DNA of 54,329 bases from a virus (taxonomy: Duplodnaviria > Caudoviricetes), in IMG/VR virus record IMGVR_UViG_3300020042_003373, positions 1 to 54,329 of that record. One strand, written 5' to 3'. The position numbers and the translations under genes are program-made. How positions within the stretch are numbered: the stretch's first letter is position 1; each line of letters begins with the position of its first letter. The notes under the pieces are model-generated. The model saw only the letters and a program-made list of their open reading frames with translations, had not been told where the DNA came from and did not search any database. This document shows, in pieces, positions 20,107 through 54,329 of this stretch.

Positions 20107-20612
20107 CCATCCCACGCAATCTATCCAACCTCGCCCCTGGCGCTAACACTGGCGGCGTTTTGAGCGCGAGCTATGGTGGTACGGGGCTTATTTCTCCTGG
20201 CACAAGCGGCAACGTCTTGGCCAGCAACGGAACGGCGTGGACTAGCACCAACACAATAACTAGCCCCATTCTTGTCACGCCTACCATCAATGACGGCTAC
20301 ATCGAAGAGACGGTTACCGCTAATACCAGCACAGCCTACACGATCTCGCTGACAGGTGGGTCATTCCAAATCCTAACGCTGACCGGCAATTGCACGTTCA
20401 CCTTCCCGACCGCCACTGCTGGGCAATCCTTCATGATGTTCCTCAAGCAAGACGCGACTGGTTCCAGAACTGTGACGTGGCCTGCTGTGGTGAAGTGGCC
20501 ATCCTCAACAGCGCCGACGATCACGGCGACAGCCAGTAAGGGGGATAAGTTTGTGTTCACTGCAGATGGCACAAATTGGCTTGGCTCCGTTGCTGGGCAG
20601 AATTACCTGTAA
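20103..20612 (+). CDS. Short fibre adaptor protein (module 2)
   Basis: Fibre GGTG repeat; LTLTGNCTFTFP...LKQDATGSRTVTWP..VKWP...D.F.F..DGTNW domain. Confidence 0.68.
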   Translation: MTIPRNLSNLAPGANTGGVLSASYGGTGLISPGTSGNVLASNGTAWTSTNTITSPILVTPTINDGYIEETVTANTSTAYTISLTGGSFQILTLTGNCTFTFPTATAGQSFMMFLKQDATGSRTVTWPAVVKWPSSTAPTITATASKGDKFVFTADGTNWLGSVAGQNYL

Positions 20613-22645
20613 TGTTTAGCGCGAATACAACTCAGGTTGCGGCGGCAACAGCGTCTCGGGCAATTGCTGTCGCTCACAGCGTATTTCCATTCATAACAGC
20701 TTATCCATGGTCAGTTTCCGGCTTCGGCACTAAATATGCCAATCCAGCAACCTTACCTGATGGTGTTGGCCGAGGCGTTGCATTCAGTACTGACGGCTCT
20801 GCAATAGCTGTCGCTCAAGACGATCCTCCCTACATATTAGCGTATCCGTGGTCAGGTTTTGGCTTTGGTACTAAATATGCCAATCCAGCAACCTTACCCA
20901 CTGGAGAGGGAAATGGCGTTGCATTCAGTACTAACGGCTCTGCTATTGCAGTGGCGCACAACACATCGCCATTTGTCTCAGCATATCCGTGGTCAGGTTC
21001 TGGGTTTGGCACAAAGTATGCTAACCCAACAACCCTACCTACCGCTATTGGCCGAGGCGTTGCATTTAGTCCTGACAGCTCTGCTATTGCTATTGCTCAT
21101 CAAACAGCACCATGTGTATCGGCCTATCCATGGTCAGGTTCTGGCTTTGGTACCAAGTACGCTAATCCCGCAACCCTCCCTACCGGCACTGGATTCGGCG
21201 TTGCATTCAGTAATAACGGCTCTGCAATTGCTGTCGCACACAGCTCAATTCCAGTCATATCAGCGTATCCATGGTCAGTTTCCGGTTTCGGAACTAAGTA
21301 CACCAATCCTGCAACCCCACCTACTGGCGATGCATACGGCGTTGCATTTAGTCCTGACAACTCTGCTATTGCTATTGCTCACGAAACATCTCTATTCATA
21401 TCAGCGTATCCATGGTCAGTTTCCGGCTTCGGCACTAAATATGCTAATCCAGCAACCTTACCTACTGGTATAGGATTAGGCGTTGCATTCAGTACTAACG
21501 GCTCTGCTATTGCTGTCGCTCACTCTACAACACCATTTGTATCGGCTTATCCTTGGTCAGGTTCCGGCTTCGGTACCAAGTACACCAATCCCGCAACCCT
21601 ACCTACTGGTAATGGAAACGGCGTCGCCTTCACTTCCGGCGGGTTTCCGGTTCAGCAGATTGCTGTTGGTCACGCTACAACACCGTTTGTTTCGGCGTAT
21701 CCGTGGTCTTCCAGTGGGTTCGGGACTAAGTATGCTAATCCAGCGACATTGCCCGTTAGTACAGGAAATGGCGTAGCTTTTAGTCCCAATGGTTCTGCTA
21801 TTGCTGTTGCCCATTCAACAACGCCATTTGTCTCAGCATATCCTTGGTTTTCAAGTGGGTTTGGAACTAAGTATGCTAATCCAGCAACATTGCCAACAGG
21901 AAACGGGTTCAGTGTTGCCTTTAGCCCTGACGGAACAGCAATTGCTGTCGGTCATTCCTCACCGCCTTTTGTGTCAGCATATCCGTGGTCAGTTTCTGGT
22001 TTTGGAACAAAATATGTTGATTCACCTACCTTTCCGACCAGCACGGGGCGCGGGGTAGCATTTAGTCCTTCTGGAACTGCAATAGCTGTCGCGCACGGTT
22101 TCATACCCTACATATCAGCATACTCATGGTCAGGTTCTGGTTTTGGGTCAAAGTATTCTAATCCAACTACCCTTCCAACAAGCGATGGCAGGAGCGTCTC
22201 ATTCAGTCCTGGCAGCACAGAAATTGCTGTCGCGCACGATTCCAGCCCCTACATAGCAGCATACTCATGGTCAGGTTCTGGGTTTGGAACTAAGTATGCT
22301 GATCCATCCACGTTGCCGACAGGAAACGGGTTAAGTGTTGCATTCAGCCCCGCTGGCACAGAGATTGCCATTGCTCATGCTGTAACGCCGTTTGTGTCGG
22401 CATACCCATGGACAACAGCTAGCGGCTTTGGAACTAAATATACAAACCCAGCCACACTGCCAGCAGCGCAAGGCAATGGCGTTGCGTTCAGCCGTGACGG
22501 CGCAACCCTTGCCGTTGCTCATACCACAACTCCGTTCATTACGGCGTACCCATGGTCAAGCTCCGGGTTCGGAACTAAATACACCAACCCAACCACATTG
22601 CCTGCCAGCACAGGAAATGGCGTTGCTTTCAACACAATCACCTAA
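20612..22645 (+). CDS. Double 7-bladed beta-propeller protein (putative receptor-binding protein)
   Basis: 14 copies of a ~47-aa repeat (IAVAH..PFVSAYPWS.SGFGTKY.NP.TLP...G.GVAFS), arranged 7+7; ATG overlaps the previous stop (TAATG). Confidence 0.78.
   Translation: MFSANTTQVAAATASRAIAVAHSVFPFITAYPWSVSGFGTKYANPATLPDGVGRGVAFSTDGSAIAVAQDDPPYILAYPWSGFGFGTKYANPATLPTGEGNGVAFSTNGSAIAVAHNTSPFVSAYPWSGSGFGTKYANPTTLPTAIGRGVAFSPDSSAIAIAHQTAPCVSAYPWSGSGFGTKYANPATLPTGTGFGVAFSNNGSAIAVAHSSIPVISAYPWSVSGFGTKYTNPATPPTGDAYGVAFSPDNSAIAIAHETSLFISAYPWSVSGFGTKYANPATLPTGIGLGVAFSTNGSAIAVAHSTTPFVSAYPWSGSGFGTKYTNPATLPTGNGNGVAFTSGGFPVQQIAVGHATTPFVSAYPWSSSGFGTKYANPATLPVSTGNGVAFSPNGSAIAVAHSTTPFVSAYPWFSSGFGTKYANPATLPTGNGFSVAFSPDGTAIAVGHSSPPFVSAYPWSVSGFGTKYVDSPTFPTSTGRGVAFSPSGTAIAVAHGFIPYISAYSWSGSGFGSKYSNPTTLPTSDGRSVSFSPGSTEIAVAHDSSPYIAAYSWSGSGFGTKYADPSTLPTGNGLSVAFSPAGTEIAIAHAVTPFVSAYPWTTASGFGTKYTNPATLPAAQGNGVAFSRDGATLAVAHTTTPFITAYPWSSSGFGTKYTNPTTLPASTGNGVAFNTIT
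20660..22630 (+). repeat. ~141-bp coding tandem repeat, 14 copies
   Basis: For example GGCTTCGGCACTAAATATGCC at 20720 and GGCTTTGGTACTAAATATGCC at 20861. Confidence 0.88.
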
Positions 22646-35216: not shown

Positions 35217-36722
35217 ATGAATCTCCTCAGCATCCAAGACGCTCTTAAGAACGCATCTGACCAGCAGCTAGTGCAGTTGATGCGGGCACCGGACAGCACA
35301 ACTCCGTCCTACTTGGTGGTGTCGGAACTCAACCGCCGCAAGCAGATGAGGATGAAGCAGGCTGAGCCGCCGAGCGGGACTGTTGCTGAAGACCTGACTA
35401 GCGAAGAAAACATGCAAGCCCCTATGGGGATTCGCAGCCTTCAGACGCCCGAGCCTGGGGATGAGGAGTATCGTCCAGAAGACGAAGCTGGCATTGAAGC
35501 CATGCGCGAGGGTGGCATTGTTCGGATGCAGGCTGGTGGACCGCCGCCTTCTGGTGAGCGGCTTCCTATGTTCCGTTCATTCAGCCCGCCACCAATGGCA
35601 GAGGCTGACAATTCCAGCCTTATGTCTACGGCGGAACAAGAGCTTCAGCGTTTGTACAGGTCCGACCCGTCAGCGCGCAGAAACCAAGCCCTCATTGATC
35701 AGACCGCCTCCACATACGGAGTTTCGGCAGATGCGCTGCGTGAGAGGCTTGGGATTGCGGCTCCAGTTACGCCTCCTCCCGCCACCACTCCTGCGGCTCC
35801 TCCTACCGCTGCCGCTACCACCACTCCTGCAACCACCGAAGGCAGGCCAACCCCAACCTCCGCTCAAACATTACCGCTCCCTCCAGAGCCTCCCCGTGGC
35901 GGCCCTCCCGCTAGCGGCGTCAGGACGCTAACACCCAGCGCGGCACCCGCCGCAGCCACTCCTGATGGATTGCCCACTCTCCAACAGAACATGGAGAGAA
36001 ACCTTGGAATGTTCCCTGGCATTCCCCAGGAACTGATGGACCGCATACGGGATTCCCGTACTAACGAAGGCGACCGCCGTAGAGAAGCGCAGAACATGGC
36101 GTTGCTTGAGGCTGGTCTTCGTATTGCTGGCTCCAACAATCCCAACTTCCTTGGGGCAATTGGTGAAGGCGCTACGCCCGCTGCTCAGACCTATGCCCAG
36201 CAGCTTGGCCAGATTCGTCAAGACCGACGCGCTGACATTCAGACCGATCTGGCGGTTGCCCAAGCTGATCTCCAGCGCCGTTACATGGCGGGTCAAATCA
36301 GTGCCGCTGAGTTGCAGCGTCAGACTCAAATGCTGATGTCAAGAGAAGAGCGTGCCGCTCGTCTTGAGGCGGCGCGTATTTCGGCAGGTAGTTCGGCAAA
36401 CGCCAATGAAATGGCAAACAGACGCCTTGACTTGACAGAACGCAATGCATTGGCGGCTCGGCAGCACACTGCCCGCATGAACGCCGTTAGAGATGTAAAC
36501 AAAGAAGTTGGCGACGTAATGAGCGACCCCATGCGCCGCGAAGCAATCAGGTCATCCTTGAGGCAGCCCGGTCAGCCAGCCCCCACAGACAATCAGATCA
36601 TGGCCGCCCTAAGGCGCGATGCTATGAACCGCATATTCCCTAGTTATGATCTTGAAATTCCAGCCCAAATAAGTGACACCGCTAGACCGGGAGCAACCGT
36701 ACAGTCGGGAGTTCCTCGCTAA
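35217..36722 (+). CDS. Putative DNA ejection protein
   Basis: ELNRRKQMR, MREGGIVRMQAGG, Pro/Thr linker, ALLEAGLRIAG..NFLGAIGEG. Confidence 0.6.
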   Translation: MNLLSIQDALKNASDQQLVQLMRAPDSTTPSYLVVSELNRRKQMRMKQAEPPSGTVAEDLTSEENMQAPMGIRSLQTPEPGDEEYRPEDEAGIEAMREGGIVRMQAGGPPPSGERLPMFRSFSPPPMAEADNSSLMSTAEQELQRLYRSDPSARRNQALIDQTASTYGVSADALRERLGIAAPVTPPPATTPAAPPTAAATTTPATTEGRPTPTSAQTLPLPPEPPRGGPPASGVRTLTPSAAPAAATPDGLPTLQQNMERNLGMFPGIPQELMDRIRDSRTNEGDRRREAQNMALLEAGLRIAGSNNPNFLGAIGEGATPAAQTYAQQLGQIRQDRRADIQTDLAVAQADLQRRYMAGQISAAELQRQTQMLMSREERAARLEAARISAGSSANANEMANRRLDLTERNALAARQHTARMNAVRDVNKEVGDVMSDPMRREAIRSSLRQPGQPAPTDNQIMAALRRDAMNRIFPSYDLEIPAQISDTARPGATVQSGVPR

Positions 36723-39700
36723 TGCCCTACTACGTTCGGCTGCCAGATAACAGGGACATTGAGTTTCCTGACAATTACCCGCGCGATGATGCCGTTCGTA
36801 TCGCTAGAGATATATTTCGGCAACCAATTGAACAGCCAGCCGTAGCAGCGCCTCCCGAAGAAAGGTCTTTGCTGGGTGGCGCTATAAGCCGTGGGTACAA
36901 CACACTTCAAAGCAACCTTGGCTCTGCCGCTGAAGGTGCTGGCAGCGTCCTTGGCATTGAGAGCTTACGCAACTACGGCGCTGAATCTCGTAGGAGAAAC
37001 CAGCAGGAAGCTGAACAGGCTCAACCAGCAGATCGTCGCGCCACCTTTGAGGATGCCAACTCCTTCGGTGGTTATGCTAGGGCAACAGGACAGGCGGTAG
37101 CAGAATCCCTCCCAGCTACCGGCCTTGGCCTTGCCGGTGGTGTTGCTGGTGGCATTGCTGGCGGTGCGCTTGGCAGCTTTCTTGGACCAGTTGGAACTGT
37201 CGCTGGCGCAACGGGAGGCAGAACTCTAGGCGCTTTCCTTGGTTCGTCATTGGCTTCTTTGCCCACGTTCTATGGCAGCAACCGTCAGCGTCAGATTGAA
37301 GAAAGCACACCAAGAGACGCGCAAGGCAGACCGACCGGCGAAGGCACAGTCAGCAGCGAAGCCGCCGCCTTTGGCGCTGCTGTACCCCAGGCGGCAATGG
37401 AGGGCGTCACCGACGTTCTCCTTGCTGGTCTTGGTAGGTTCTTCCGTGGCGGCGTTGAAGAGGTAGGCAAAGCATTCTTGCCGCGCGTTGCTCAAGGCAT
37501 TGGCGTTGGTGCTGCAAGTGAAGTTCCCACTGAGGTTCTTCAGCAGGCGCTAGAGCGCGCGCAGGCTGGCCTGGACCTTCAGTCCCCTGAAGCCTACCGG
37601 GAATACCGTGAAGCCACCATCGCGGCTATTGCTGCTGGTGGTACAATGGGTGGTGCCGTCAGCGGCGCGCTGGGCAGACGCCCTGCCCCAGCCACTGCGC
37701 GCGAACGGGAAGAAGAAGCTCCTCCCCAGCCCGGTCAAACGCCAGCGCCTGAAGCAGTGGCAGAGGGAGCGCCCGTCGAAGCTCCCGTGGTCCAGCCGTC
37801 AGAAGCCGCAGTTCCCAATGGTAATGAGGTGCCAACAGGCGGCGGCATTACGCCCGAGGCTGCCACCCCAATCACCGCGCCAGCACCCGTTCAGATGCCT
37901 GAGCAAGCCGCCCCCGAGATTGTTGAGGGGCAACCCCAGGCTCAGACCGCAGAGCCGTCAGCCGCGCCCGTAGCGCCTCCTGTTGCCCCTGTTGAACCCG
38001 CTCCGATTACTGGGTTCACAACCGCGCTAGGCAGCACATACGAGATTAATGAAGAGGGGCAAACAAGCCGCACCAAGAACTCTCCCGGTCGCGGCCAAGG
38101 CAAAACCTATGAACCGCACAATGTTCTCTTTGTTGACCCGGACGAAGCGCTAAACATTTTAGAAGATATGCGTGGCGGCGGTAACTATCGTTTTGTTGTA
38201 GATGATCCTGCCGGACCTCGCCCTATTGGGGTAGGTGAATCTATATCTGGTAAGCGCGTCGCTCTTGCGGTGTTCAACCAAGACGGAACATTTGATCGTT
38301 ATGTTCCGGCAAAGACTCAGCCTGCCGTTGGATTGTCACCTGTTGAACTTCGTTACGACACCAATGAAGCTGGCGAGGTTATGTCGAACCGCCACATTGG
38401 CAACGTCATCACTGAGGTTAGAGGAGCAGCGCCCGCTGAGCAATCCGCCCCAGTCCAGCCTGAGCCTGCCGCATCTGCCCAGCCTATGGCTGTTGCAGAA
38501 GGGGAAACTCGCAAGGCCATCTGGAATGGCCCAGACTACGACATGCCCGTCGATGTCTATCCTGATCCGCCAGAAGCAGCGCCGGACGGCACGCTATATT
38601 CTCGCGTGTCTTACGGTGGGCAAGATACTTATCTCCCAACCAACGACCTGAAGTTTAGCGAACCCGCGCCTGTTGAGGAGACAAGCAAGAAGCCCGCCGC
38701 CACAAGCCAGCCCATCTCTGTTTACTCAGAGGTGAAGAGGGGCAAGGACATCTTCCCGCCTGGGAATAAGCCAGTTAAAGCAGGCGCTCCCAAAGCAAAG
38801 ACAAAGTCCGCTGCCGCAAAGGGCGCGACTGGAGGTCTGCCTCCTATCGGTCAGCGCGTCCCGCCCGTAACGCAGATCATGGCTGACGGCACTGAGCTAC
38901 AGATCGAATACAATGTTGTAGCTAAGGCACTAAGCAAAAGATTTGGTCAGCTAGGCTGGAAGATTCAGCCATCCAAGATCGAACGGTTCTTCACGGTCTT
39001 TCAAGACCACATGTTGCCGGTCGCCAGGATGGTAGACAGCATCAAAGCCGCTGGCGGCAACGTCTTGCAGGCAATGAACACCTATGTTCAACAGGACTTG
39101 CTAAGCGGCAGAACTGCCGACATGCTAAAGCAGCGCAATGAAGGCATGTACCAAAGGCTGATCAACGGCATTGCTAACTCTAAGGTTGGCATGACCGACT
39201 TTGAGAACTACCTCTACGCTCGCCACGCTGAAGAGCGGAATAACTACATCGCCACCATCAATCCAGAAATGCCTGATGGCGGTTCCGGCATGAGCAATGC
39301 AAGGGCGAAAGAAGTCTTGGATGAGTTTGCTGGCGCAGGAAAAATTCCTGAGCTTGAGAAGCTTGCTGTAATGTTTGACGCAATCATTGCTGACACTAAC
39401 AAGCTGCGTTCCGAGTATGGCCTTACCCCAGACTTCTCAACAATGACTGTTGATTCTGAGGGCAAGCTTCTTCCAAACTATCAGAACTACGCCCCGCTCA
39501 AAGGCTTTGCTGATGAGAGCGTGGATGCAGATGAACCCATCAATGAGTTCCGCCCGAAGGGTAGCCGCATGCTTGGCGCTAAGGGGCGCGAAGACATGCA
39601 GGCCATGGGCCGCAAGCGCATGGCGGGCGATATCGTTGCCCATGCCATGATGCAGAACACCCAGGCCGTGGTGCGCTCTCAAAAGAATGCGGTGGGCCAA

Positions 39701-41635
39701 TCCTTCCTTGAGATGCTGAGGGCAAACCCAGAGCAGACAAAGGACATCGCTCAAATCCTTAGCCGCCCAATGACCAGAACCGCCATTGTGAATGGCGTGG
39801 TCAAGGTTGTGCCCGACATCATGTACAAGGGTAGACCAGATATCCTTGTGGTCAAGGAAGGCGGTAAAGAAACCGTTGTTCAGATTAAGGACGAAGCAAT
39901 CGCTCGGTCCATGATTGGTGCGACATCTAGCTCGCCAACAACAAACAACGCATTGATCAAGGGCATGATTGCCCTCAACAGCTACTTGGCTAAGATCAAT
40001 ACTGCGTACAACCCTGAGTTCATGATCACTAACTTCCTCCGTGATCTTCAAACCTTCGGCGTGAACGTCGAGCAATTTGATGTTGACGGCCTTCGCTCTG
40101 ACTCGATCAGGGATGTCAGGGCCGCCATGTCCGGTATCCGCGACGTGGTGCGCGGCACCGACAATAACCCGGAGATGGCTGGCTACTACAACCGCCTCAA
40201 GGAACTAGGCGGAACCAACGAAGCCTATGGTTTTGCCGATCTCGACACTCGCATCAATGAGATCAACGAAACGATGGCGAAGACTGGCACGAACGCCAAG
40301 TCTTGGAAGGATATGGCCAAAGTCATTGCCCCGGTCGGTAAGTTCATTGAAGACTACAACACCATTGTTGAGAACGGTATCCGCACATCCGTGTTTAAGA
40401 ATATGGTGGAGCGTGGCATCAACGAACAGCAGGCTGCGTATATTGCCAAAAACGTGACGGTCAACTTCACGAAGGGCGGCGAGAACCGCGTCTTTATGAA
40501 CGCCATGTATCTGTTCTACAACGCATCCCTCCAAGGCACGATGGCTATGGTCAATGCCATGGGCCGCTCCAAGAAGGTGAGGAGGATCGTTGCTGGCATT
40601 ATGGTCGCTGGCCTGATGCAGGACGCCTTGAACAGCATGCTGTCTGGCGAGGATGAGGATGGCGAGAAGGTCTATGATAAAATCCCGGATCATATTCTGA
40701 AGCGTAGCTTCATTATGATGGATCCTTTTGGCCTTACCGAGCGCGGTTATCTCAGCTTCCCAATGCCCTATGGCTTCAATGCCTTCTTCAATATGGGCAG
40801 AGAGATGGGCAAGGTTGCGCGTGGTGCGTCCACCCCAATGGATGGTGCGGGCAATATCCTTGGCACATTCCGCGATGCCTTCAACCCAGTGGGTGGGGGC
40901 GAGAGCTTCTTGAATTTTGTTGCCCCAACAATAGCCGATCCTCTCGTAGACATTGCCAGGAACAGAGACTTCGCTGACAGGCCCATCGTGCCAGAGCGTG
41001 GTGGCTTCGGCGTCCAGCCGCCAGAGAGCCAGAAGTATTGGAACAACACTTTCGCTCCGTTCGTTGGTATCTCTAGTTTCTTGAACGAACTTACGGGCGG
41101 GACAACAGTCATCCCAGGCGCGGTCGATATCAGCCCGAACATGATCAACTACTTGTTCAACTTTGCGACTGGTGCCGCAGGCAAGTTCGTTGAGCGCAGC
41201 TTCACCACCGCCACAACAACCATCCCGTCCATGTTGGCCGGTGATTTCTCAGAAGTCGAGGCGCGTGAGATTCCTCTGGCTCGTTCCCTGATTGGGAACG
41301 TCACATCGCGCAACGACATGGAACGCTACATGCAGCGCACACAGGAGGTTCTGCAAATCCGCCAGGAGATCAGGGCAGCCAATGAAGCCGGGGATTCCGA
41401 GCGGGTTGCTGCGGCTTTTGAGAGATACCCTGGCCAGATCGAGATCATGGACAGCATCAACAAGCTGTCCAGAGATAGAAGTAAGCTGACCCGCGATATC
41501 AACTCTATCAGTAGAAATGAGAACATCCCTGAAGATGTTAAACGTGATCTGATCAAGCAGCTTCGTGATCAGCAGAACCAACTGGTTGGTCTAGCCAATA
41601 GGCTTTACAACCAGCGGGTCACTAACAGGGACTAG
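36722..41635 (+). CDS. Large internal virion/ejection protein with LPD38-like C-terminus
   Basis: 1637 aa and last gene of the arm; TVNFTKGG...YLFYNASLQG...YDKIPD...PMPYGFN...NRDF..RPIVP. Confidence 0.7.
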   Translation: MPYYVRLPDNRDIEFPDNYPRDDAVRIARDIFRQPIEQPAVAAPPEERSLLGGAISRGYNTLQSNLGSAAEGAGSVLGIESLRNYGAESRRRNQQEAEQAQPADRRATFEDANSFGGYARATGQAVAESLPATGLGLAGGVAGGIAGGALGSFLGPVGTVAGATGGRTLGAFLGSSLASLPTFYGSNRQRQIEESTPRDAQGRPTGEGTVSSEAAAFGAAVPQAAMEGVTDVLLAGLGRFFRGGVEEVGKAFLPRVAQGIGVGAASEVPTEVLQQALERAQAGLDLQSPEAYREYREATIAAIAAGGTMGGAVSGALGRRPAPATAREREEEAPPQPGQTPAPEAVAEGAPVEAPVVQPSEAAVPNGNEVPTGGGITPEAATPITAPAPVQMPEQAAPEIVEGQPQAQTAEPSAAPVAPPVAPVEPAPITGFTTALGSTYEINEEGQTSRTKNSPGRGQGKTYEPHNVLFVDPDEALNILEDMRGGGNYRFVVDDPAGPRPIGVGESISGKRVALAVFNQDGTFDRYVPAKTQPAVGLSPVELRYDTNEAGEVMSNRHIGNVITEVRGAAPAEQSAPVQPEPAASAQPMAVAEGETRKAIWNGPDYDMPVDVYPDPPEAAPDGTLYSRVSYGGQDTYLPTNDLKFSEPAPVEETSKKPAATSQPISVYSEVKRGKDIFPPGNKPVKAGAPKAKTKSAAAKGATGGLPPIGQRVPPVTQIMADGTELQIEYNVVAKALSKRFGQLGWKIQPSKIERFFTVFQDHMLPVARMVDSIKAAGGNVLQAMNTYVQQDLLSGRTADMLKQRNEGMYQRLINGIANSKVGMTDFENYLYARHAEERNNYIATINPEMPDGGSGMSNARAKEVLDEFAGAGKIPELEKLAVMFDAIIADTNKLRSEYGLTPDFSTMTVDSEGKLLPNYQNYAPLKGFADESVDADEPINEFRPKGSRMLGAKGREDMQAMGRKRMAGDIVAHAMMQNTQAVVRSQKNAVGQSFLEMLRANPEQTKDIAQILSRPMTRTAIVNGVVKVVPDIMYKGRPDILVVKEGGKETVVQIKDEAIARSMIGATSSSPTTNNALIKGMIALNSYLAKINTAYNPEFMITNFLRDLQTFGVNVEQFDVDGLRSDSIRDVRAAMSGIRDVVRGTDNNPEMAGYYNRLKELGGTNEAYGFADLDTRINEINETMAKTGTNAKSWKDMAKVIAPVGKFIEDYNTIVENGIRTSVFKNMVERGINEQQAAYIAKNVTVNFTKGGENRVFMNAMYLFYNASLQGTMAMVNAMGRSKKVRRIVAGIMVAGLMQDALNSMLSGEDEDGEKVYDKIPDHILKRSFIMMDPFGLTERGYLSFPMPYGFNAFFNMGREMGKVARGASTPMDGAGNILGTFRDAFNPVGGGESFLNFVAPTIADPLVDIARNRDFADRPIVPERGGFGVQPPESQKYWNNTFAPFVGISSFLNELTGGTTVIPGAVDISPNMINYLFNFATGAAGKFVERSFTTATTTIPSMLAGDFSEVEAREIPLARSLIGNVTSRNDMERYMQRTQEVLQIRQEIRAANEAGDSERVAAAFERYPGQIEIMDSINKLSRDRSKLTRDINSISRNENIPEDVKRDLIKQLRDQQNQLVGLANRLYNQRVTNRD

Positions 41636-49856: not shown

Positions 49857-51563
49857 ATGAGCATTGACCCAGCTTACATAATGGCCAAGGCAAAAGGCCA
49901 ACAGGTCAGGGTCGCGTGCCCGGCATGCGAGCCGACACGCAAGACGCGCAATGATCCAAGTCTGTCCATCCACACAAACCCTGAAGGGGTTTTGGTCTGG
50001 CAGTGCTGGCATTGCGGAGAGACAGGAAGAACAACAGGGGCAAAGCCCCCAGGAGAGAAGAGTATGGCGATAACGCCGATGAGAAAGATTGAGAGCGACA
50101 GCCTGTCGCTTGATGCGCTGGTGTATCTTCAGGGTAGGTGTATCTCGCAAGCTACAGCCGAGAACCTTGGCGTCGTTTCTGGCAATCGCTGGTTCAAGAA
50201 GCTGTCCGCAGAACGCCCTGCCTTGGGCTTTGTGTATGGCCAGAACGGCAATGCCTATGCCGCGAAGTGGCGGTCACTTGAGGGCAAGGACTTCACCGCC
50301 GAGGGTGCTGCCGTCACGCTTTATCTGGCTGATCGGTTGACAGATACGTCCAGGGTGGTGATCACCGAGGGTGAGATGGATGCCCTCTCGTACTGGGAAG
50401 CGGGCATAGAAGCCGTTTCAATCCCCTCTGGAGCCATTGCCAGCGGCACTGCGGATGATGCTGCCCGGCTGCGCTGGATAGCCGCTCACGATGATCTGCT
50501 TGCGAATGCCAAGGAGATTTATCTGGCTGTCGATATGGATGACCCCGGTCAGATCACAGCACAAGAGCTGGCTCGTCGCCTAGGCAAACTCAAATGCTAC
50601 AAAGTGGAGTTCCCGTCAGGAACTAAAGACGCGAACGATGTTCTCGTTAAGAACGGCGCTGATGCACTGAGGGAAACAATCAAGAACGCCCAGCCCTGGC
50701 CCATCGAAGGCGTTGCTCAGCCTGTTGATTTCCATTCCAAGGTCATGGACTTGTACCAGAATGGTTTGCCCCCAGGCAATTCCACTGGTTGGTCCAGTGT
50801 GGACGATGTGTATACGCTTTGCCCAGGCAATCTAGTTGTTGTCACTGGCATCCCTGGTCACGGCAAGTCCACGTTCATCGATGCCATGCTGGTCAATGCG
50901 ATGCAGCAGCACAACTGGTCAGTGGCTTATGCCAGCTTTGAGAACCCGCCAGAGATTCATCTCTCAAAGCTGATTGCTCTGAAGCAGGGCAAACCCTTTG
51001 GCTATGGACCGACACCCCGCCTGAACAACACAGAGCTGGACGAGGGCATGGCCTGGGTGCAGGAGCATGTCACGTTCCTGACCCATGATGGTGTCATGCC
51101 CACGGTCGAGAGCCTAATAGAAAGGTTTGAGACTGCGGTGCGGCGCAATGGTGTTAAGGCTTGCGTCGTCGATCCGTTTAACTTCATCAAGTTGAATGGG
51201 AAAGATGGCGGAGTAGACACTGAAGCCATCAATGAAATGCTCAGTAAGTTCAAGATGTTTGCCCAGCGTAGTGAGGTTGTTTTCTTCATCATTGCTCATC
51301 CGGCGAAGCCAATGAACGCCGGTAGTGACTGGGTACCTACGGGTTACTCCATCAGTGGGTCTGCCCACTGGTATAACCGGGCCGACTTTGGTTTAACCAT
51401 GCACAGGAATGAAAGAATGTCATCCTTGCATGTTTGGAAATGCCGCTTCTCTCATCAAGGAAAGACCGGCAAGGTTGAGCTGTCATATGACAGGCCGACC
51501 GGGGGGTTCAGCGAACCGGGTTTGCCGCTGCCGGGCGATGATAGTTGGATGGACGACATCTAA
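49857..51563 (+). CDS. Primase-helicase (T7 gp4/Twinkle-like)
   Basis: Zn finger CPAC...CWHC; TOPRIM ITEGEMDALS and DMDDPG, KDAND; SF4 Walker A GIPGHGKS, VVDPFN, IAHP.K, ISGSA. Confidence 0.92.
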   Translation: MSIDPAYIMAKAKGQQVRVACPACEPTRKTRNDPSLSIHTNPEGVLVWQCWHCGETGRTTGAKPPGEKSMAITPMRKIESDSLSLDALVYLQGRCISQATAENLGVVSGNRWFKKLSAERPALGFVYGQNGNAYAAKWRSLEGKDFTAEGAAVTLYLADRLTDTSRVVITEGEMDALSYWEAGIEAVSIPSGAIASGTADDAARLRWIAAHDDLLANAKEIYLAVDMDDPGQITAQELARRLGKLKCYKVEFPSGTKDANDVLVKNGADALRETIKNAQPWPIEGVAQPVDFHSKVMDLYQNGLPPGNSTGWSSVDDVYTLCPGNLVVVTGIPGHGKSTFIDAMLVNAMQQHNWSVAYASFENPPEIHLSKLIALKQGKPFGYGPTPRLNNTELDEGMAWVQEHVTFLTHDGVMPTVESLIERFETAVRRNGVKACVVDPFNFIKLNGKDGGVDTEAINEMLSKFKMFAQRSEVVFFIIAHPAKPMNAGSDWVPTGYSISGSAHWYNRADFGLTMHRNERMSSLHVWKCRFSHQGKTGKVELSYDRPTGGFSEPGLPLPGDDSWMDDI

Positions 51564-51596
51564 AAGAAAAGAGGCTGGCAAATTAATGCCAGCCTC
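51562..51596 (-). terminator. Rho-independent terminator of the leftward RAMP-locus transcript
   Basis: GAGGCTGGCA-N6-TGCCAGCCTC stem (51571-51596); on the - strand it is followed by TTTTCTTTT. Confidence 0.75.
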
Positions 51597-51600
51597 CTAT

Positions 51601-51674
51601 GCGCCCTTAGCTCAGTTGGATAGAGCAGAAGCCTTCTAAGCTTCAGGCCGCTGGTTCGAATCCAGCAGGGCGCG
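51601..51674 (+). tRNA. tRNA-Arg(TCT), no encoded CCA
   Basis: Acceptor GCGCCCT/AGGGCGC+G; D arm GCTC-AGTTGGATA-GAGC; anticodon arm GAAGC-CTTCTAA-GCTTC; T arm GCTGG-TTCGAAT-CCAGC. Confidence 0.95.
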
Positions 51675-51683
51675 TATCCTCCA

Positions 51684-52136
51684 TCATGCCAGCGCCTCCC
51701 CTTCTTCGACGGCTTCCATCTGAGCCAGCGCCGCATCGATGTGAGGCACAAGCTCCGCGTACCGGCGATAGCGGGCGGTCACCCGGTGTACCTCGGCACG
51801 CATCTGCCTCAGCAAAGCCTCAGCCCTAACATCATCCTGCACCACCGCCTGGGTGAGGGCGTAGGCCGCCTTGGTCTGGTCATAGACATAAGCCCTAACC
51901 GGAATCAGCGCACCGTCAGGACGGGGCAACATGGTGACTGCGATTCTGATTGTTTCACCGGCTTGCTGTAACCGATATTTCCGAGCGGCTTCAGTGTCAT
52001 CCCATGTGAAGGCAGAATGAAGCGCTGTGTTATTTGACCGGGCAAAATCCACCACATCATCGGGCTTCAGTTCGCCACCGGCCTGAACCCGGAGCATCTC
52101 CAGCTCATGAAGCTGGTCTTTGTTTAGTGTTCTCAT
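51684..52136 (-). CDS. Conserved phage protein, companion of the RAMP/array locus
   Basis: AAGGAGAG RBS; G.L.P.DVVD.AR....LH..FTWDD..AA..YRL.QA...IR motif. Confidence 0.75.
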   Translation of the reverse strand: MRTLNKDQLHELEMLRVQAGGELKPDDVVDFARSNNTALHSAFTWDDTEAARKYRLQQAGETIRIAVTMLPRPDGALIPVRAYVYDQTKAAYALTQAVVQDDVRAEALLRQMRAEVHRVTARYRRYAELVPHIDAALAQMEAVEEGEALA

Positions 52137-52185
52137 TGTTCTCTCCTTAATCATCCACCGCACGATTGCTGCGGATGTTTAGGTA

Positions 52186-52818
52186 GCCGTGCCTGCGGTG
52201 CGGTGCCTATCCTTGCCCCGCCACGCCGCGCCAGTCCTTGCCTGCCGTGCCCTGCCTCACCAGTCCCCGCCCAGCCCCGCCACTCCTGTCCGGGCCTGCC
52301 ATGCCTTGCCGATCCCGGCCATACCGTTCCGGGCCGCGCCTTGCCTGCCGTGCCGGGCCGGGCCATACCTCGCCTGACCATGCCTCGCCTGACCATGTCT
52401 GCCGTGCCGTTCCTGGCCGTGCCCAGCCTTTCCTTGCCTTGCCTGCCGTGCCAATCCCCGCCATGCCAGTCCGGGCCAAGCCACGCCTTGCCTGCCGCGC
52501 CTTGCCATTCCGGGCCAGTCCAAGCCCCGCCTCGCCGCCCGCGCCACGCCTAGCCTAGCCTCGCCTGCCGTGCCCTGCCTCACCATCCCCGCCCAGCCCC
52601 GCCACTCCTGTCCACGCCTGCCGTGCCAGTCTTCGCCCTGCCCGTCCCCGCCGAACCCAACCATGCCTGCCGCGCCAATCCCCGCCAATCCCCGCCGGCC
52701 CTAGCCTCGCCATGCCTGCCGTGCCAATCCCAGCCGTGCCCTGCCAGTCCACTCCTAGCCTTGCCTGCCGCGCCAGTCCGCGCCCCGCTATGCCCTGCCA
52801 CGCCATACCTGCCATGCC
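52186..52818 (-). repeat. Array 1: GG(C/A/T)-NN pentamer array of ~12-13 units delimited by GGCAGGC
   Basis: Delimiters (+ strand GCCTGCC or variant) at 52191, 52240, 52294, 52343, 52397, 52441, 52490, 52563, 52616, 52665, 52714, 52763, 52807. Confidence 0.9.
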
Positions 52819-52820
52819 AA

Positions 52821-52848
52821 CTGCGCCCCGCCCGAAGGCAGGGCGCAG
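52821..52848 (-). other. cUUCGg tetraloop hairpin at the 5' end of array 1
   Basis: - strand CTGCGCCCTGCC-TTCG-GGCGGGGCGCAG (12 bp, one G-U), 6 nt after the RAMP stop codon. Confidence 0.8.
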
Positions 52849-52854
52849 CATGTA

Positions 52855-53502
52855 TTACTGCTGGCTGTTGTCGATTTCGAAGTGACCCCAGCCCATGCCA
52901 GTGCTGGCCTTCGAATCAGCGCGGCCTTCACCGACGCCAACCTGAGCGCCAACACGGGCAACAAGAGCGGCAACATCCCCCTGTGTGAACTGCTCACTGT
53001 CGAACCGGATACGCAGATCGGCAGCCCAGTCACGCCACATCGGGCGGGTACGGATATCAATAACGCCGGTAGCGTTACGGACATGCATGTCGGTGCGCTC
53101 CGGCTCGCCGGCAATGATCCGCACCAGCGGGGTGCCATCGATAACATCCAGACCATCAGCCTCCACAAACAGGGAGAGCTTAGCCAGGGTCATCTTAAAA
53201 CCGACCAAGCGGCATGCCGAGATCAGGCCGTTGCGGAATGCGCCAGCGTGAATGCCATCCCACCCCTCAGAGGACAGGTGGCGTGCGCCTTGGAAGACTT
53301 CATCGAAGTCTTTCGGGTCACGCTTCGCGCCCTTCTTGGCAGTCGAGCCAGCCGCCATCTTTTCCATCATCGCCTGCTGCGCCTTGGCAGGAAAGCGATT
53401 GATCACCAGCGGTGCGGTGCCAACGATACGCAACACCATCCGCTGCATCGCGGGCGGCTTGATGTTAATGCTGGTCGTCGGAATCTTCGAAACTTCAGTC
53501 AT
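52855..53502 (-). CDS. Stand-alone RAMP (Cas7/Csm3-like) protein
   Basis: First strand LRIVGTAPLVI, IHAGAFRNGLISAC helix (compare the RAMP ipgssiKG.lR motif), and C-terminal Gly-rich loop GAQVGVGEGR....GMGWGHFEI; AAGGAGAG RBS. Confidence 0.7.
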   Translation of the reverse strand: MTEVSKIPTTSINIKPPAMQRMVLRIVGTAPLVINRFPAKAQQAMMEKMAAGSTAKKGAKRDPKDFDEVFQGARHLSSEGWDGIHAGAFRNGLISACRLVGFKMTLAKLSLFVEADGLDVIDGTPLVRIIAGEPERTDMHVRNATGVIDIRTRPMWRDWAADLRIRFDSEQFTQGDVAALVARVGAQVGVGEGRADSKASTGMGWGHFEIDNSQQ

Positions 53503-53580
53503 GATTATTCTCTCCTTGTTTAACCCACACCGTTATCAATGTGGGGTAGTCAACTAAAGGACCATTCCTTCAGTTGTTAT

Positions 53581-53867
53581 TCCTGCGGTGCTTTGCCTTG
53601 CCCCGCCACACCAATCCAAGCCGTGCCCCACCTGACCCGGCCACGCCTAGCCTGCCGTGCCTTGCCAATCCAGGCCGCGCCGATCCTTGCCTTGCCTGCC
53701 GTACCTCGCCAGTCCGCGCCACGCCATGCCGGGCCACGCCTGTCCACGCCAGTCCACGCCTGCCGTGCCGTTCCTGACCGTGCCTGTCCTGGCCAAGCCC
53801 TGCCTTGCCTGCCTTACCCTACCAGTCCCCGCCAAGCCCCGCCTGGCCAATCCACGCCTGCCTTGCC
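53581..53867 (-). repeat. Array 2: GG(C/A/T)-NN pentamer array of 5 units
   Basis: Delimiters at 53581, 53650, 53694, 53758, 53807, 53856 (spacings 69, 44, 64, 49, 49, all 5n+4). Confidence 0.9.
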
Positions 53868-54095
53868 TTAGCGTCCGCCCTCAGCCTCCACCCTGCGGGC
53901 GCTCTTGAGGTAAGCTTTAGCCAGCATCAGCCGACCGAAGGCCAGATTTTCCGCGGCCCTGGACCGCAGCATGAGAGCAGTGAACCGCGTCATGGTTTCC
54001 GGCTCACTCACCTCCAGCTTTTCCCTCATATCCATGAGGATCTGCTGAGCTTCAGCATGCAGCAGCCTCGACCGAACGAATACCCGCTCATTCAT
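53868..54095 (-). CDS. Hypothetical helical protein
   Basis: AAGGAGAG RBS before MNERVF; its stop abuts array 2. Confidence 0.6.
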   Translation of the reverse strand: MNERVFVRSRLLHAEAQQILMDMREKLEVSEPETMTRFTALMLRSRAAENLAFGRLMLAKAYLKSARRVEAEGGR

Positions 54096-54097
54096 TG

Positions 54098-54283
54098 TCA
54101 CTCTCCTTTTTCTTCTTCGCATTTATGTTCTGTTTCTACTGGGCCGTCAACTCCCGGCGTACCTTTCTTGCATTTCCCCATACATTCATTGCACCTCCCA
54201 AAAATACAATGCCAGCGGCTGTACTCATGGTCGAGCAGTCCCATCCAATCATTCATTGCGTCTTTTGCTGTGACCCACGACAT
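54098..54283 (-). CDS. Small Cys-rich hypothetical protein
   Basis: HC..GRC.EC...C; in line with the leftward operon. Confidence 0.45.
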   Translation of the reverse strand: MSWVTAKDAMNDWMGLLDHEYSRWHCIFGRCNECMGKCKKGTPGVDGPVETEHKCEEEKGE

Positions 54284-54329
54284 CCCAGAAAAGAAATCTG
54301 GGTGAAGGTAGACCTCCCCCTCTCCTGCA

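What the first reader, a model, noticed from the sequence alone, without database searches (positions are those of the whole stretch)
52186..52818. Array 1 has a strict grammar: 5n+4 units with all information in the dinucleotides
Units are 44/49/54 nt between GGCAGGC delimiters (a 4-nt register slip). The exceptions are one 53-nt unit and one 73-nt stretch that has a degenerate internal delimiter near 52534. NN strings read on the - strand differ per unit: 52763-52807 AT GT AG AT GG GC CT GC; 52714-52763 AA TA GT CT AG AC TG TT AC; 52441-52490 AA GT TT CC CT AT GG TT AC; 52343-52397 AT CA GA AT CA GA AT CC CC AC. The last NN before a delimiter is AC, GC or AT in these units, so the true boundary is about GGC-RY-GGCAGGC. 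Slippage microsatellites homogenise; here the scaffold is conserved while NN is diverse, which is what a library of roughly 12 guides with 16-20 informative nt each would look like.
Basis: partly seen in the sequence, partly recalled or inferred. Interest (0 to 1): 0.9.

Follow-up and report, generated by a model that had tools for sequence, protein, structure and literature searches.

The report
Phage VIPR guide-RNA arrays (staggered type)
The odd five-base repeat is a phage's library of about 18 short guide RNAs for a recently described CRISPR-like system called VIPR, in which only two bases of every five carry the address of the DNA to be silenced.

Summary
On the minus strand, 52193-52818 (13 units) and 53583-53867 (5 units) are runs of GG-(C>A>T)-NN pentamers. 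Each unit has 9-13 pentamers and ends in GGC-RY-GGCAG, whose last G is the first G of the next unit; this gives the 5n+4 spacing.

The arrays flank a 215-aa gene (52855-53502, minus). Its family profile matches the solved SUSP1 Vipr protein (PDB 36pp_D, E 4.8e-5; hhalign 95%, E 3.8e-8).

Same-strand GG-pentamer arrays lie downstream of homologues of this gene in 21 of 23 loci. They also occur in cluster-F mycobacteriophages and Cy-LDV1.

Three 2026 bioRxiv preprints describe this system as VIPR: one Vipr protomer binds each GGY, and the NN bases pair with dsDNA while skipping every third target base. They also mention "staggered arrays" with a 1-nt overlap.

Not shown here: transcription, processing and targets. 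All target searches were null or at chance level, but most were exact-match scans with low power.

Differences from characterised SUSP1:
- no 3' tail;
- A at repeat position 3 in 19% of pentamers;
- an E-G-R G-loop instead of D-W-R;
- an unrelated accessory gene.

The parts
52193..52818 (-). vrRNA array 1: a leader GGCAT-GGCAG, then 13 staggered units, then a degenerate terminal CGCAC-CGCAG
52765..52809 (-). unit u1, 9 pentamers; NN = AT GT AG AT GG GC CT | GC; one off-pattern pentamer, AGCGG
52716..52765 (-). unit u2, 10 pentamers; NN = AA TA GT CT AG AC TG TT | AC; conserved in relative G001, where 19 of 20 NN bases match while two position-3 bases differ
52667..52716 (-). unit u3; NN = AT GA TA CC GG TT GG TT | GC
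52618..52667 (-). unit u4; NN = AT TG TC GG CG AG GA CT | AC; one off-pattern pentamer, AGACT
52565..52618 (-). unit u5, the 53-nt spacing; a near-copy of u12 with a 1-nt deletion, probably a decayed guide
52536..52565 (-). unit u6, short (6 pentamers), with a degenerate junction; part of the 73-nt stretch
52492..52536 (-). unit u7, 9 pentamers; NN = GA GG TT CT CC AT AA | GC
52443..52492 (-). unit u8; NN = AA GT TT CC CT AT GG TT | AC
52399..52443 (-). unit u9; NN = AA AA AA TG AC CA AC | AC
52345..52399 (-). unit u10, whose first pentamer is degenerate (GACAT); NN = AT CA GA AT CA GA AT CC CC | AC
52296..52345 (-). unit u11; NN = AA GC CC AC AT CG TC AA | AT
52242..52296 (-). unit u12, 11 pentamers; NN = CC CA GT GG TG GG CT GA AG | AC
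52193..52242 (-). unit u13, terminal; NN = AA CT GC GT GG AA TA AC; ends in the degenerate delimiter CGCAC-CGCAG
53583..53867 (-). vrRNA array 2: a leader GGCAA-GGCAG directly after the stop codon of the upstream 84-aa ORF, then 5 staggered units, then a degenerate terminal AGCAC-CGCAG
53809..53858 (-). unit v1; NN = GT TT CA GG TT GG CT AG | AA
53760..53809 (-). unit v2; NN = AA AG TT CA CA AC CA AC | AC
53696..53760 (-). unit v3, 13 pentamers; NN = GT CT GT CA GT CC AT GT GC CT GA | AC
53652..53696 (-). unit v4; NN = AA AA TC GC CT TT AA | AC; identical in relative G001
53583..53652 (-). unit v5, terminal; NN = TA GT CG CA GG AC TT TT GT GG AA AA
52855..53502 (-). vipr, 215 aa, PHROG 4652, no Pfam family above its cut-off (one MelC1 match at 17.3 bits, cut-off 27). 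Invariant across 36 homologues: R153-P154, which aligns with the SUSP1 thumb R138-P, and the G-loop E192-G193-R194, which aligns with SUSP1 D177-W178-R179
51684..52136 (-). Candidate accessory (vap-like) gene, 150 aa from the ATG that follows AAGGAGA; PHROG 15946. A homologue lies next to vipr in 17 of 25 loci, including a mycobacteriophage. Function unknown; not similar to SUSP1 vap1
52822..52849 (-). 13-bp hairpin between the vipr stop and array 1 (centroid -29 kcal/mol, z -3.8); no T run follows it
53552..53577 (-). 11-bp hairpin between the end of array 2 and the vipr ribosome-binding site (z -2.5)
53868..54122 (-). 84-aa ORF upstream of array 2. It is 95% conserved in relative L005 and has no family match; whether it belongs to the system is unknown
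51569..51598 (-). Terminator-like hairpin plus T run on the minus strand, downstream of the operon and beyond the plus-strand tRNA-Arg

Best explanation
This is a VIPR (Viral Interference Programmable Repeat) locus of a tailed phage.

The minus-strand operon reads: 84-aa ORF, array 2, vipr, array 1, 150-aa accessory gene.

The two arrays encode about 18 vrRNAs. Each is a run of 9-13 GG(C/T/A)-NN pentamers.

Inferred by homology with SUSP1 VIPR:
- Vipr protomers polymerise along each vrRNA, one per pentamer.
- They clamp the GGY bases and present the NN dinucleotides.
- The NN bases pair with a double-stranded DNA target while skipping every third target base (NNxNNx...).
- This silences genes of competing phages, prophages or satellites.

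The array is of the tail-less 'staggered' kind. Each unit ends in the near-constant GGC-RY-GGCAG, and the last G doubles as the first G of the next unit.

My own inference, untested: this 4-nt step breaks the 5-nt register of the Vipr filament. It would so mark the boundary where units are separated, and the constant 3' pentamers would serve as a handle rather than as guide.

Shown here: the grammar, the Vipr homology, the gene-array linkage across phyla, and the fast turnover of units between near-identical phages.

Inferred: transcription, processing, RNP formation, the 1-nt skip rule for this clade, and the biological targets.
For: (1) Grammar. There are 18 same-register GGxNN runs, all on the strand of the genes. 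They occur nowhere else in the 54-kb genome.

(2) Protein. A profile of 36 homologues hits PDB 36pp_D 'SUSP1 Vipr protein' at E 4.8e-5 as the only hit below 0.1. hhalign against the SUSP1 gene product gives 95% probability, E 3.8e-8, over 54 columns. The aligned stretch holds the residues that the structure preprint says read the GG: thumb R138, G-loop D177 and R179. In this family they are invariant as R153, E192 and R194.

(3) Linkage.
- 21 of 23 loci with a homologue have GG-pentamer arrays downstream on the gene's strand, and none has them on the other strand.
- In 6 of 6 whole phage records, runs of 6 or more pentamers occur only beside vipr.
- The 31 phage records with the protein (25 Mycobacterium, 5 Gordonia, 1 Cy-LDV1) include the Mycobacterium, Gordonia and Cy-LDV1 phages listed among the best array DNA matches.
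- DRBy19 gp52 is 30% identical (E 3e-20). It sits just downstream of an array with the same GGCRT-GGCAG|GC grammar.

(4) Guide-like evolution.
- Relative G001/L005 has a 99.5% identical Vipr, but it has 10 runs against 18. Only 3 run pairs reach NN identity of 0.7 or more: one identical, one with 19 of 20 NN bases kept while 2 position-3 bases changed, and one weak pair of 6 pentamers at 0.75.
- Six cluster-F phages with Vipr at least 99% identical differ by whole units.

(5) Not coding. Every sense frame has stops: 2, 2 and 4 in array 1, and 1, 1 and 1 in array 2.

(6) Literature. GGY/NN vrRNAs of 9-16 repeats, phage-borne vipr flanked by long intergenic arrays, and staggered arrays with a 1-nt overlap are all described in 10.64898/2026.04.26.720920 (sections and legends read).
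Against: No target was found. The best matches in the phage's own genome equal the shuffled nulls at skips 0-3. For 38 guides against six related phage genomes, 0, 0, 0 and 1 guides beat 30 shuffles at skips 0, 1, 2 and 3. The exact 1-nt-skip scans of the viral, genome and metagenome collections gave nothing or chance-level hits.

There is no direct evidence of transcription or of unit-length RNAs.

The homology to SUSP1 Vipr covers only the C-terminal third. SUSP1 H17 and W178 are not conserved here; they align with N35 and G193.

Position 3 is a purine in 37 of 168 pentamers. The SUSP1 pocket is said to exclude purines.

There is no 3' tail or pseudoknot.

The neighbouring gene is not similar to vap1.

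The preprint states that sRNA-seq confirmed the hammerhead and single-vrRNA architectures. It does not say so for staggered arrays.
Confidence: 0.88

Rival explanations
1. The arrays are a VIPR-derived RNA that does not guide silencing of foreign DNA. It might instead be a decoy or sponge that titrates a competitor's Vipr, or a regulator of the phage's own operon.
For: The third preprint's abstract reports satellite-borne solo vrRNAs that redirect a phage's VIPR to decoy sites. No foreign target was found here. Some units are decayed: u5 and u6.
Against: The arrays sit beside an intact, strongly conserved vipr. No self-match beats the shuffled background. Unit content turns over quickly between near-identical phages, as expected for guides under arms-race selection.
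Confidence: 0.05
2. The G-rich pentamer tracts act in cis as nucleic-acid structure rather than as guides. Options are G-quadruplexes, R-loops that prime replication next to the primase-helicase gene, or a C-rich antisense strand that acts as a one-way Rho-dependent terminator.
For: The sense strand is 48-50% G and the antisense strand is C-rich. GG-N3-GG spacing fits two-tier quadruplexes (my own knowledge). The arrays lie about 0.6 kb from a primase/helicase gene that converges on them.
Against: None of these needs a strict 5-nt register, a fixed GGC-RY-GGCAG punctuation every 9-13 pentamers, or free NN. The arrays track the vipr gene rather than replication genes, across proteobacterial phages and actinophages. 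A single unit does not fold better than shuffles (z -1.2).
Confidence: 0.04
3. It is a neutral slippage microsatellite or minisatellite with no function.
For: Tandem Repeats Finder reports period-5, -10, -15, -20, -25 and -49 arrays here. Metagenome contigs show joints inside the arrays. Those joints are unreliable at the likeness I used.
Against: Slippage homogenises repeats. Here GG is fixed while NN uses all 16 dinucleotides. The same grammar and the same delimiter recur beside homologous genes in phages of different phyla.
Confidence: 0.02
4. The arrays are translated into Gly/Ala/Arg-rich repeat peptides. Mycobacteriophage records annotate such ORFs.
For: Open frames of up to 147 codons exist because GGCNN rarely makes stop codons. 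DRBy19 gene 51, BobaPhett gene 51 and Donkeykong gene 48 are annotated inside arrays.
Against: All three sense frames contain stops. Unit lengths of 5n-1 shift the frame. Array lengths differ freely between phages with identical neighbouring genes. No ribosome-binding site was seen by eye.
Confidence: 0.01

Closest known systems
VIPR system of Escherichia phage SUSP1 (type II; bioRxiv 10.64898/2026.04.26.720920 and 10.64898/2026.04.26.720927; PDB 36pp)
   Same: Both are phage-borne. Both have a Vipr protein of about 200 aa, homologous in the thumb and G-loop region. Both have vrRNAs made of GG-Y-NN pentamers, 9-16 per RNA, lying in the intergenic DNA on both sides of vipr. Both have a small accessory gene directly after vipr.
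   Different: SUSP1 vrRNAs are separate GGT-rich RNAs of about 100 nt, each with a ~40-nt 3' tail and pseudoknot. Here the units are GGC-rich, tail-less and abut with a 1-nt overlap. Position 3 is A in 19% of pentamers here. The G-loop is E-G-R here, against D-W-R in SUSP1. The accessory proteins are unrelated (hhalign probability 0.2%).
'Staggered vrRNA arrays' mentioned in the VIPR discovery preprint (legend of fig. S18)
   Same: The legend says that individual vrRNAs derive from 1-nt-overlapping positions, so that the end of one marks the start of the next. That is exactly the GGCAG|GC junction seen here.
   Different: I could read only the legend. The figure and the supplementary tables (type assignment, list of loci) were not available. 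I therefore cannot say which of the seven types this is, or whether this clade is the one shown. The text names sRNA-seq confirmation for other architectures only.
Arrays beside gp52-like genes of cluster-F mycobacteriophages (DRBy19, Saal, BobaPhett, Quico, Donkeykong, Brocalys), some Gordonia phages and 'Cyanophage' Cy-LDV1
   Same: The Vipr homologue is the same (30% identity for DRBy19 gp52, 62% for Cy-LDV1 g34). The staggered grammar with a GGC-RY-GGCAG delimiter is the same. A homologue of the 150-aa accessory gene follows vipr.
   Different: In the mycobacteriophages the array lies upstream of vipr only. Position 3 is C in 292 of 298 pentamers, and DRBy19 gp52 (at least 99% identical in the other five) has the SUSP1-like G-V-G-D-W-R-P loop. 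GenBank annotates hypothetical genes inside some of these arrays.
Class 1 CRISPR-Cas (Cas7-type RAMP backbone on crRNA)
   Same: According to the preprints, a RAMP-type protein oligomerises along a guide RNA with thumb-induced periodic base flipping, and guides are stored in arrays.
   Different: There is no repeat-spacer architecture, and no cas1, cas2 or other cas genes were seen among the window ORFs I scanned. The guide is non-contiguous: 2 of every 5 RNA bases pair with 2 of every 3 DNA bases. No CRISPR family matched in Rfam.
TRAP binding to (G/U)AG-NN repeats in the Bacillus trp leader (recalled, not tested)
   Same: A triplet plus a 2-3-nt spacer is read by an oligomeric protein, one subunit per repeat.
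   Different: The protein is unrelated, the RNA is a regulatory leader, and the spacers carry no addressing information. This was only an early lead and I dropped it.

Membership tests
VIPR system | A Vipr protein (minimal RAMP homologue) is encoded next to the repeat RNA | tested here: met
   The profile of 36 homologues hits PDB 36pp_D 'SUSP1 Vipr protein' at E 4.8e-5. hhalign gives 95%, E 3.8e-8. The match covers the C-terminal 45-54 residues only.
VIPR system | RAMP architecture: RRM core, thumb and glycine-rich loop | tested here: inconclusive
   The thumb Arg-Pro and the G-loop G-x-G-(D/E)-x-R-P align and are invariant. The Atlas holds a confident model (pTM 0.80), but its structural neighbours are unnamed viral clusters.
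VIPR system | vrRNA made of tandem pentamers with conserved GG and hypervariable NN, 9-16 repeats per RNA (at least 4 to call one) | tested here: met
   There are 18 units, 16 of them with 9-13 pentamers (u5 and u6 are irregular). All 16 dinucleotides occur at NN.
VIPR system | Pyrimidine at repeat position 3 (GGY) | tested here: inconclusive
   C plus T make up 131 of 168, A 32 and G 5. The preprints allow 'a related consensus' and non-canonical motifs.
VIPR system | Invariable structured 3' tail after the repeat tract (type II) | tested here: not met
   No tail lies between units. Only the constant GGC-RY-GGCAG is there. This fits the tail-less 'staggered' architecture that the preprint lists as a variant, so it argues against type II and not against VIPR.
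VIPR system | Accessory vap gene in a two-gene operon with vipr | tested here: inconclusive
   A conserved 150-aa neighbour is found in 17 of 25 loci. It has no similarity to SUSP1 vap1 and no Pfam or PDB match. vap2-6 could not be compared.
VIPR system | Mostly carried by phages or proviruses | tested here: met
   The window is a 54-kb phage genome with portal, tail fibre, Erf-like annealing protein and primase-helicase genes. Relatives are IMG/VR contigs and cultured phages.
VIPR system | vrRNAs are expressed, processed and bound by Vipr | not testable with these tools
   Only assembled contigs of public runs were available. A 160-nt contig from an RNA library matches 53650-53809 exactly, but the tool warns that this does not show transcription.
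VIPR system | Natural DNA targets match the NN string under the 1-nt skip rule | tested here: inconclusive
   No match beat chance. The collection scans took exact matches only, and the host is unknown.
CRISPR-Cas | Direct repeats of 23-50 nt alternating with spacers, with cas genes nearby | tested here: not met
   The repeat finders show only the 5-nt-based periods. Rfam finds only the tRNA. No cas family turned up among the ORFs scanned. An exonuclease elsewhere in the genome has a weak 'CRISPR/Cas system associated' PHROG hit, which is a PD-(D/E)XK-type similarity.

The most novel reading that the evidence does not exclude
The tail-less staggered architecture works by a different maturation logic from SUSP1. 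The single 4-nt step (GGC-A-GGC) would break the register of the Vipr filament, so that the protein itself measures and delimits each guide without a structured handle.

This clade's E-G-R G-loop, which lacks the stacking Trp, would tolerate A at repeat position 3. That would be a relaxed scaffold code.

The conserved 150-aa neighbour, shared from proteobacterial phages to mycobacteriophages, would be a new accessory class that acts after target binding.
Probability: 0.25. Interest if true: 0.6.

Novelty: new member of a known kind. Interest (0 to 1): 0.42.

Why it matters
VIPR is a very recent discovery (preprints of April-October 2026). It is a phage-borne, RNA-guided DNA-silencing system with a non-contiguous code, proposed to predate CRISPR.

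This window adds a rich natural example: 18 guides in two arrays around one vipr gene. It is of the staggered, tail-less architecture, for which the preprint text I could read reports no experimental confirmation.

It also shows that the same architecture, the same delimiter and the same accessory gene are shared by freshwater proteobacterial-type phages and by well-studied cluster-F mycobacteriophages. In the latter it sits in the early lytic operon after cro and the antirepressor, and is partly mis-annotated as protein-coding. That gives a tractable laboratory system (M. smegmatis phages) for testing how staggered arrays are processed and what they target.

For the scan itself, it is a useful positive control: a reader with no tools inferred the code correctly from sequence alone.

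Tried and rejected
Early leads dropped:
- TRAP-like or CsrA-like protein-binding repeats, G-quadruplex or R-loop origins, Rho-dependent antisense terminators and pentapeptide-type coding were all considered before the literature search. They were set aside because the arrays track the vipr gene and because all frames carry stops.

Target hunting, all null or at chance level:
- Own genome with arrays masked, skips 0-3. The best scores equal the shuffled means.
- 38 guides of six phages against those six genomes (532,490 nt, both strands). 0, 0, 0 and 1 guides beat the maximum of 30 shuffles at skips 0, 1, 2 and 3. The single case was at skip 3.
- Exact 1-nt-skip patterns in viral contigs. v3 (11 NN): 0 hits. 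u2 (8 NN): 40 hits, mostly AT-rich contigs, and only 1 of 40 extends to the ninth NN. v5 (9 NN): 0. u12 (9 NN): 0.
- Genome contigs. v3: 0. u12: 1 hit. u10: 17 hits, in unrelated ORFs and in all frames.
- Metagenome contigs. v3: 0. v5 (10 NN): 2 hits. One matches 22 of 24 NN bases but lies in what looks like a fungal F-box gene.
- Convergence test: all guides scanned locally against every fetched hit locus. Nothing beyond the seeded guide appeared.
- Mycobacteriophage guides. Viral contigs: 0, 0, 0. Genome contigs: 59 hits, none in a Mycobacterium record.
- Power was low. Collection scans accept exact matches only, and 16-18 specified bases give 1 to about 50 chance hits. The preprint instead used mismatch-tolerant searches of host pangenomes.

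Finding a cultured host group carrying this clade: 0 of 17 genomes (genus) and 0 of 401 genomes (family) around a Pseudomonas handle have a homologue at E <= 1e-10. I abandoned this.

Sequencing runs:
- Only assembled contigs were available.
- The two RNA libraries laid gave one exact 185-nt contig inside vipr (52967-53151) and one exact 160-nt contig over units v2-v4 (53650-53809). The second begins on a unit boundary and ends 2 nt past another.
- The tool states that this does not show transcription, and depth was 3-5, so I count it as no more than a hint.
- Bins without cover in the RNA runs mean nothing.
- Joints inside the arrays in DNA runs X4 and X5 may be unit gain or loss, or may be assembly or repeat artefacts. 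I laid at likeness 88, below the tool's reliable range.

Accessory gene: no Pfam family, no PDB relative (best E 0.47), only unnamed viral clusters in the Atlas, and no similarity to SUSP1 vap1.

Supplementary tables and figures of the preprints were not seen. They may hold the type assignment, the list of 664 loci and the staggered-array example, and so bear on whether this very clade is already listed.
Full report
WHAT IS THERE

The window is a complete or nearly complete 54,329-bp phage contig; the 'genome' held for it is the window itself. It encodes a portal protein, a tail fibre, an Erf-like annealing protein, an exonuclease, a MazG-like enzyme and a primase-helicase.

Near its right end a minus-strand operon reads as follows:
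- an 84-aa ORF (53868-54122);
- array 2 (53583-53867);
- a 215-aa gene (52855-53502);
- array 1 (52193-52818);
- a 150-aa gene (51684-52136).

A plus-strand tRNA-Arg(TCT) follows.

THE OBSERVATION

On the minus strand both arrays are runs of pentamers GG-x-NN. GGCAGGC recurs at 49,49,49,53,73,49,98,49,54 nt in array 1 and at 49,49,64,44 nt in array 2.

When I follow a fixed 5-nt register, the DNA resolves into 18 runs.

Array 1 has 13 units and array 2 has 5. Complete units hold 9-13 pentamers. That means 7-12 variable dinucleotides plus a nearly constant RY (mostly AC) and AG.

The irregular spacings have simple causes:
- the 53-nt unit is a copy of another unit with one base lost;
- the 73-nt stretch has a degenerate junction;
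- the 98-nt stretch has a degenerate delimiter, GGCAGAC.

The pattern is not chance. Windows with at least 7 of 10 in-phase GG occur only in these two places and only on this strand, and 20 shuffles of the genome reach at most 5-7.

Position 3 is C 116, A 32, T 15, G 5 of 168. All 16 dinucleotides occur at NN.

No frame is open through either array. Sense-frame stops number 2, 2 and 4 in array 1, and 1, 1 and 1 in array 2.

Both arrays begin with a delimiter-like leader (GGCAT-GGCAG and GGCAA-GGCAG). Both end with a degenerate delimiter (CGCAG preceded by CGCAC or AGCAC).

A strong 13-bp hairpin lies between the vipr stop and array 1. An 11-bp hairpin lies between array 2 and the vipr start. 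A single unit is not significantly structured.

No sigma-70-like promoter was found in 51500-54329. I therefore infer that the arrays are co-transcribed with the operon.

RELATED SEQUENCES

A sensitive blastn of the region against cultured phages hit the arrays of 'Cyanophage' Cy-LDV1 and many cluster-F mycobacteriophages. Those regions show the same pentamers and the same GGCAGGC punctuation.

The 215-aa protein has more than 4,600 relatives in metagenomes and prophages. None of the 120 listed has a Pfam domain.

Among cultured phages, 31 records hold the protein (25 Mycobacterium, 5 Gordonia, Cy-LDV1). They include the Mycobacterium, Gordonia and Cy-LDV1 phages listed among the best array matches. 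DRBy19 gp52 is 30% identical (E 3e-20).

In 23 loci fetched through the protein, 21 have GG-pentamer arrays downstream on the gene's strand, and none has them on the other strand. The two exceptions are a contig cut 139 nt after the gene and one with decayed remnants.

In six whole phage records, runs of 6 or more pentamers occur only beside this gene.

A homologue of the 150-aa gene follows the 215-aa gene in 17 of 25 loci, including DRBy19. The order is either gene-array-accessory or gene-accessory-array.

WHAT IT IS

A full-text search for 'pentanucleotide repeat' with 'bacteriophage' and 'intergenic' found bioRxiv 10.64898/2026.04.26.720920. I read its Results, its Discussion, four Methods sections and several supplementary legends.

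It describes VIPR systems as follows:
- a phage-borne minimal RAMP protein, Vipr;
- usually one accessory gene, vap;
- vrRNAs of 9-16 YNNGG repeats, in which GGY is conserved and NN is hypervariable;
- NN bases that pair with dsDNA under a '1-nt skip' rule and need no PAM;
- natural targets in satellites, prophage regulators and rival VIPR loci.

It lists seven types. Its array variants include 'staggered arrays with overlapping vrRNAs', where units overlap by 1 nt.

The structural companion, 10.64898/2026.04.26.720927 (abstract and two Results sections read), shows one protomer per repeat. G1 is read by H17 and D177, G2 by R138 and W178, and Y3 sits in a pocket that includes R179.

A third preprint, 10.64898/2026.10.15.759431 (abstract and one Methods section), shows phage-satellite competition. 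A fourth, 10.64898/2026.10.21.760802 (passages only), recovers VIPR arrays by their 5-nt entropy periodicity and reports non-canonical motifs.

MEMBERSHIP

A profile of 36 homologues of the 215-aa protein (A1) finds one significant PDB chain, 36pp_D 'SUSP1 Vipr protein' (E 4.8e-5).

I fetched the SUSP1 locus from GenBank record KT454805.2. hhalign of A1 against its Vipr gives 95% probability, E 3.8e-8, over 54 C-terminal columns.

In that alignment:
- SUSP1 R138-P corresponds to the invariant R153-P154;
- SUSP1 G-V-G-D177-W178-R179-P corresponds to G-V/I-G-E192-G193-R194;
- H17 corresponds to N35 here, and to H in DRBy19 gp52.

The SUSP1 arrays are GGT-rich RNAs with long tails. Here the units are GGC-rich, tail-less and staggered.

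The 150-aa neighbour is unrelated to SUSP1 vap1 and has no known family.

I therefore file the locus as a VIPR system of the staggered architecture, type undetermined.

EVOLUTION OF THE GUIDES

The IMG/VR relative G001/L005 has a 99.5% identical Vipr and about 86-88% identical flanking DNA. It has 10 runs where the window has 18.

Only three run pairs reach NN identity of 0.7 or more:
- one is identical;
- one keeps 19 of 20 NN bases while two position-3 bases differ;
- one is a weak match of 6 pentamers.

Six cluster-F mycobacteriophages with Vipr at least 99% identical differ by whole units.

This cassette-like turnover on a fixed scaffold is what guides under conflict would show. It is the opposite of slippage homogenisation.

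In the mycobacteriophages position 3 is C in 292 of 298 pentamers, and the G-loop keeps the Trp. In the window's clade the Trp is Gly and position 3 is A in 19% of pentamers. That is a correlation worth testing and no more.

HOW IT MOST LIKELY WORKS

Shown here: the grammar, the homology, the linkage and the turnover.

Inferred from the SUSP1 work:
- the operon transcript is cut into 45-65-nt vrRNAs;
- Vipr protomers coat each one, holding the GGY bases and exposing NN;
- the filament invades dsDNA whose sequence reads NNxNNx...;
- it blocks transcription of a competitor's gene.

My own inference: the 4-nt step GGC-A-GGC interrupts the 5-nt register and so defines unit boundaries. The constant last two pentamers would act as a handle. 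Because every unit is flanked by a delimiter on both sides, I cannot tell whether the constant part is a 3' or a 5' handle.

TARGETS AND EXPRESSION

None of my target searches rose above background. Details and call numbers are in Tried and rejected. The absence of self-targets agrees with the preprint's report for its own systems.

Exact-match scans with 16-22 specified bases in very large collections, and local scans of six related phages, have little power. I treat the result as uninformative, not as refutation.

Public runs gave only assembled contigs. Two exact short contigs from RNA libraries lie in vipr and in array 2, but by the tool's own warning they do not show transcription.

VERDICT

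The locus is a new member of a known kind.

What remains open, and modestly interesting:
- the untested staggered maturation;
- the relaxed position 3 and the altered G-loop;
- the conserved unknown accessory gene;
- the targets.

Noticed in passing
window 20576-22645 (+), repeats 20663-22368: A 689-aa ORF (PHROG 19311, unknown function) is built from about 14 diverged copies of a 141-nt (47-aa) tandem repeat (TRF score up to 1091). It lies next to a tail-fibre-like gene, so it is probably a repeat-domain fibre or decoration protein.
   Followed up: partly
L002 4041-4205 (DRBy19 gene 51); L102 741-905 (BobaPhett gene 51); L104 679-1065 (Donkeykong gene 48): GenBank annotates hypothetical protein genes that lie inside the pentamer arrays of cluster-F mycobacteriophages. 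Given the array grammar, these are probably not genes.
   Followed up: partly
L002 (DRBy19 36.6-38.1 kb) and L101-L105: In cluster-F mycobacteriophages the VIPR locus sits in the early rightward operon, just after cro and the antirepressor and before excise. That placement suits early expression on infection or induction. These phages are a culturable system for the staggered type.
   Followed up: no
L001 (BK059895.1 'Cyanophage Cy-LDV1' 30.5-32.1 kb): This record carries the same vipr, array, accessory gene, array layout. The stretches read looked GC-rich, and its Vipr is 62% identical to that of the window.
   Followed up: no
window 51600-51675 (+) and 51569-51598: A tRNA-Arg(TCT) lies between the convergent primase-helicase gene and the VIPR operon, with a terminator-like hairpin beside it. 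RNA and DNA runs hold many unrelated contigs matching only the tRNA.
   Followed up: no
window 52354-53836, seen in runs X4 and X5: Metagenome contigs join different points of the two arrays, for example skips of 108 and 244 nt within array 1 and joins between arrays 1 and 2. These could be population variants in unit number or repeat-induced assembly artefacts. I laid at likeness 88, where the tool calls joints unreliable.
   Followed up: partly
L016/G005 13117-13754 and the 3' ends of both window arrays: Some relatives use YGCAG instead of GGCAG as the delimiter (for example GGATT-CGCAG|GC). The window's two arrays end with this variant. The conserved core of the boundary is therefore GCAG|GC.
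   Followed up: partly
window 36722-41635 (+): A 1637-aa protein matches very large virion-associated proteins, with a weak DarB-like antirestriction hit (PHROG 10089, E 7e-12). It may be an injected anti-defence protein.
   Followed up: no
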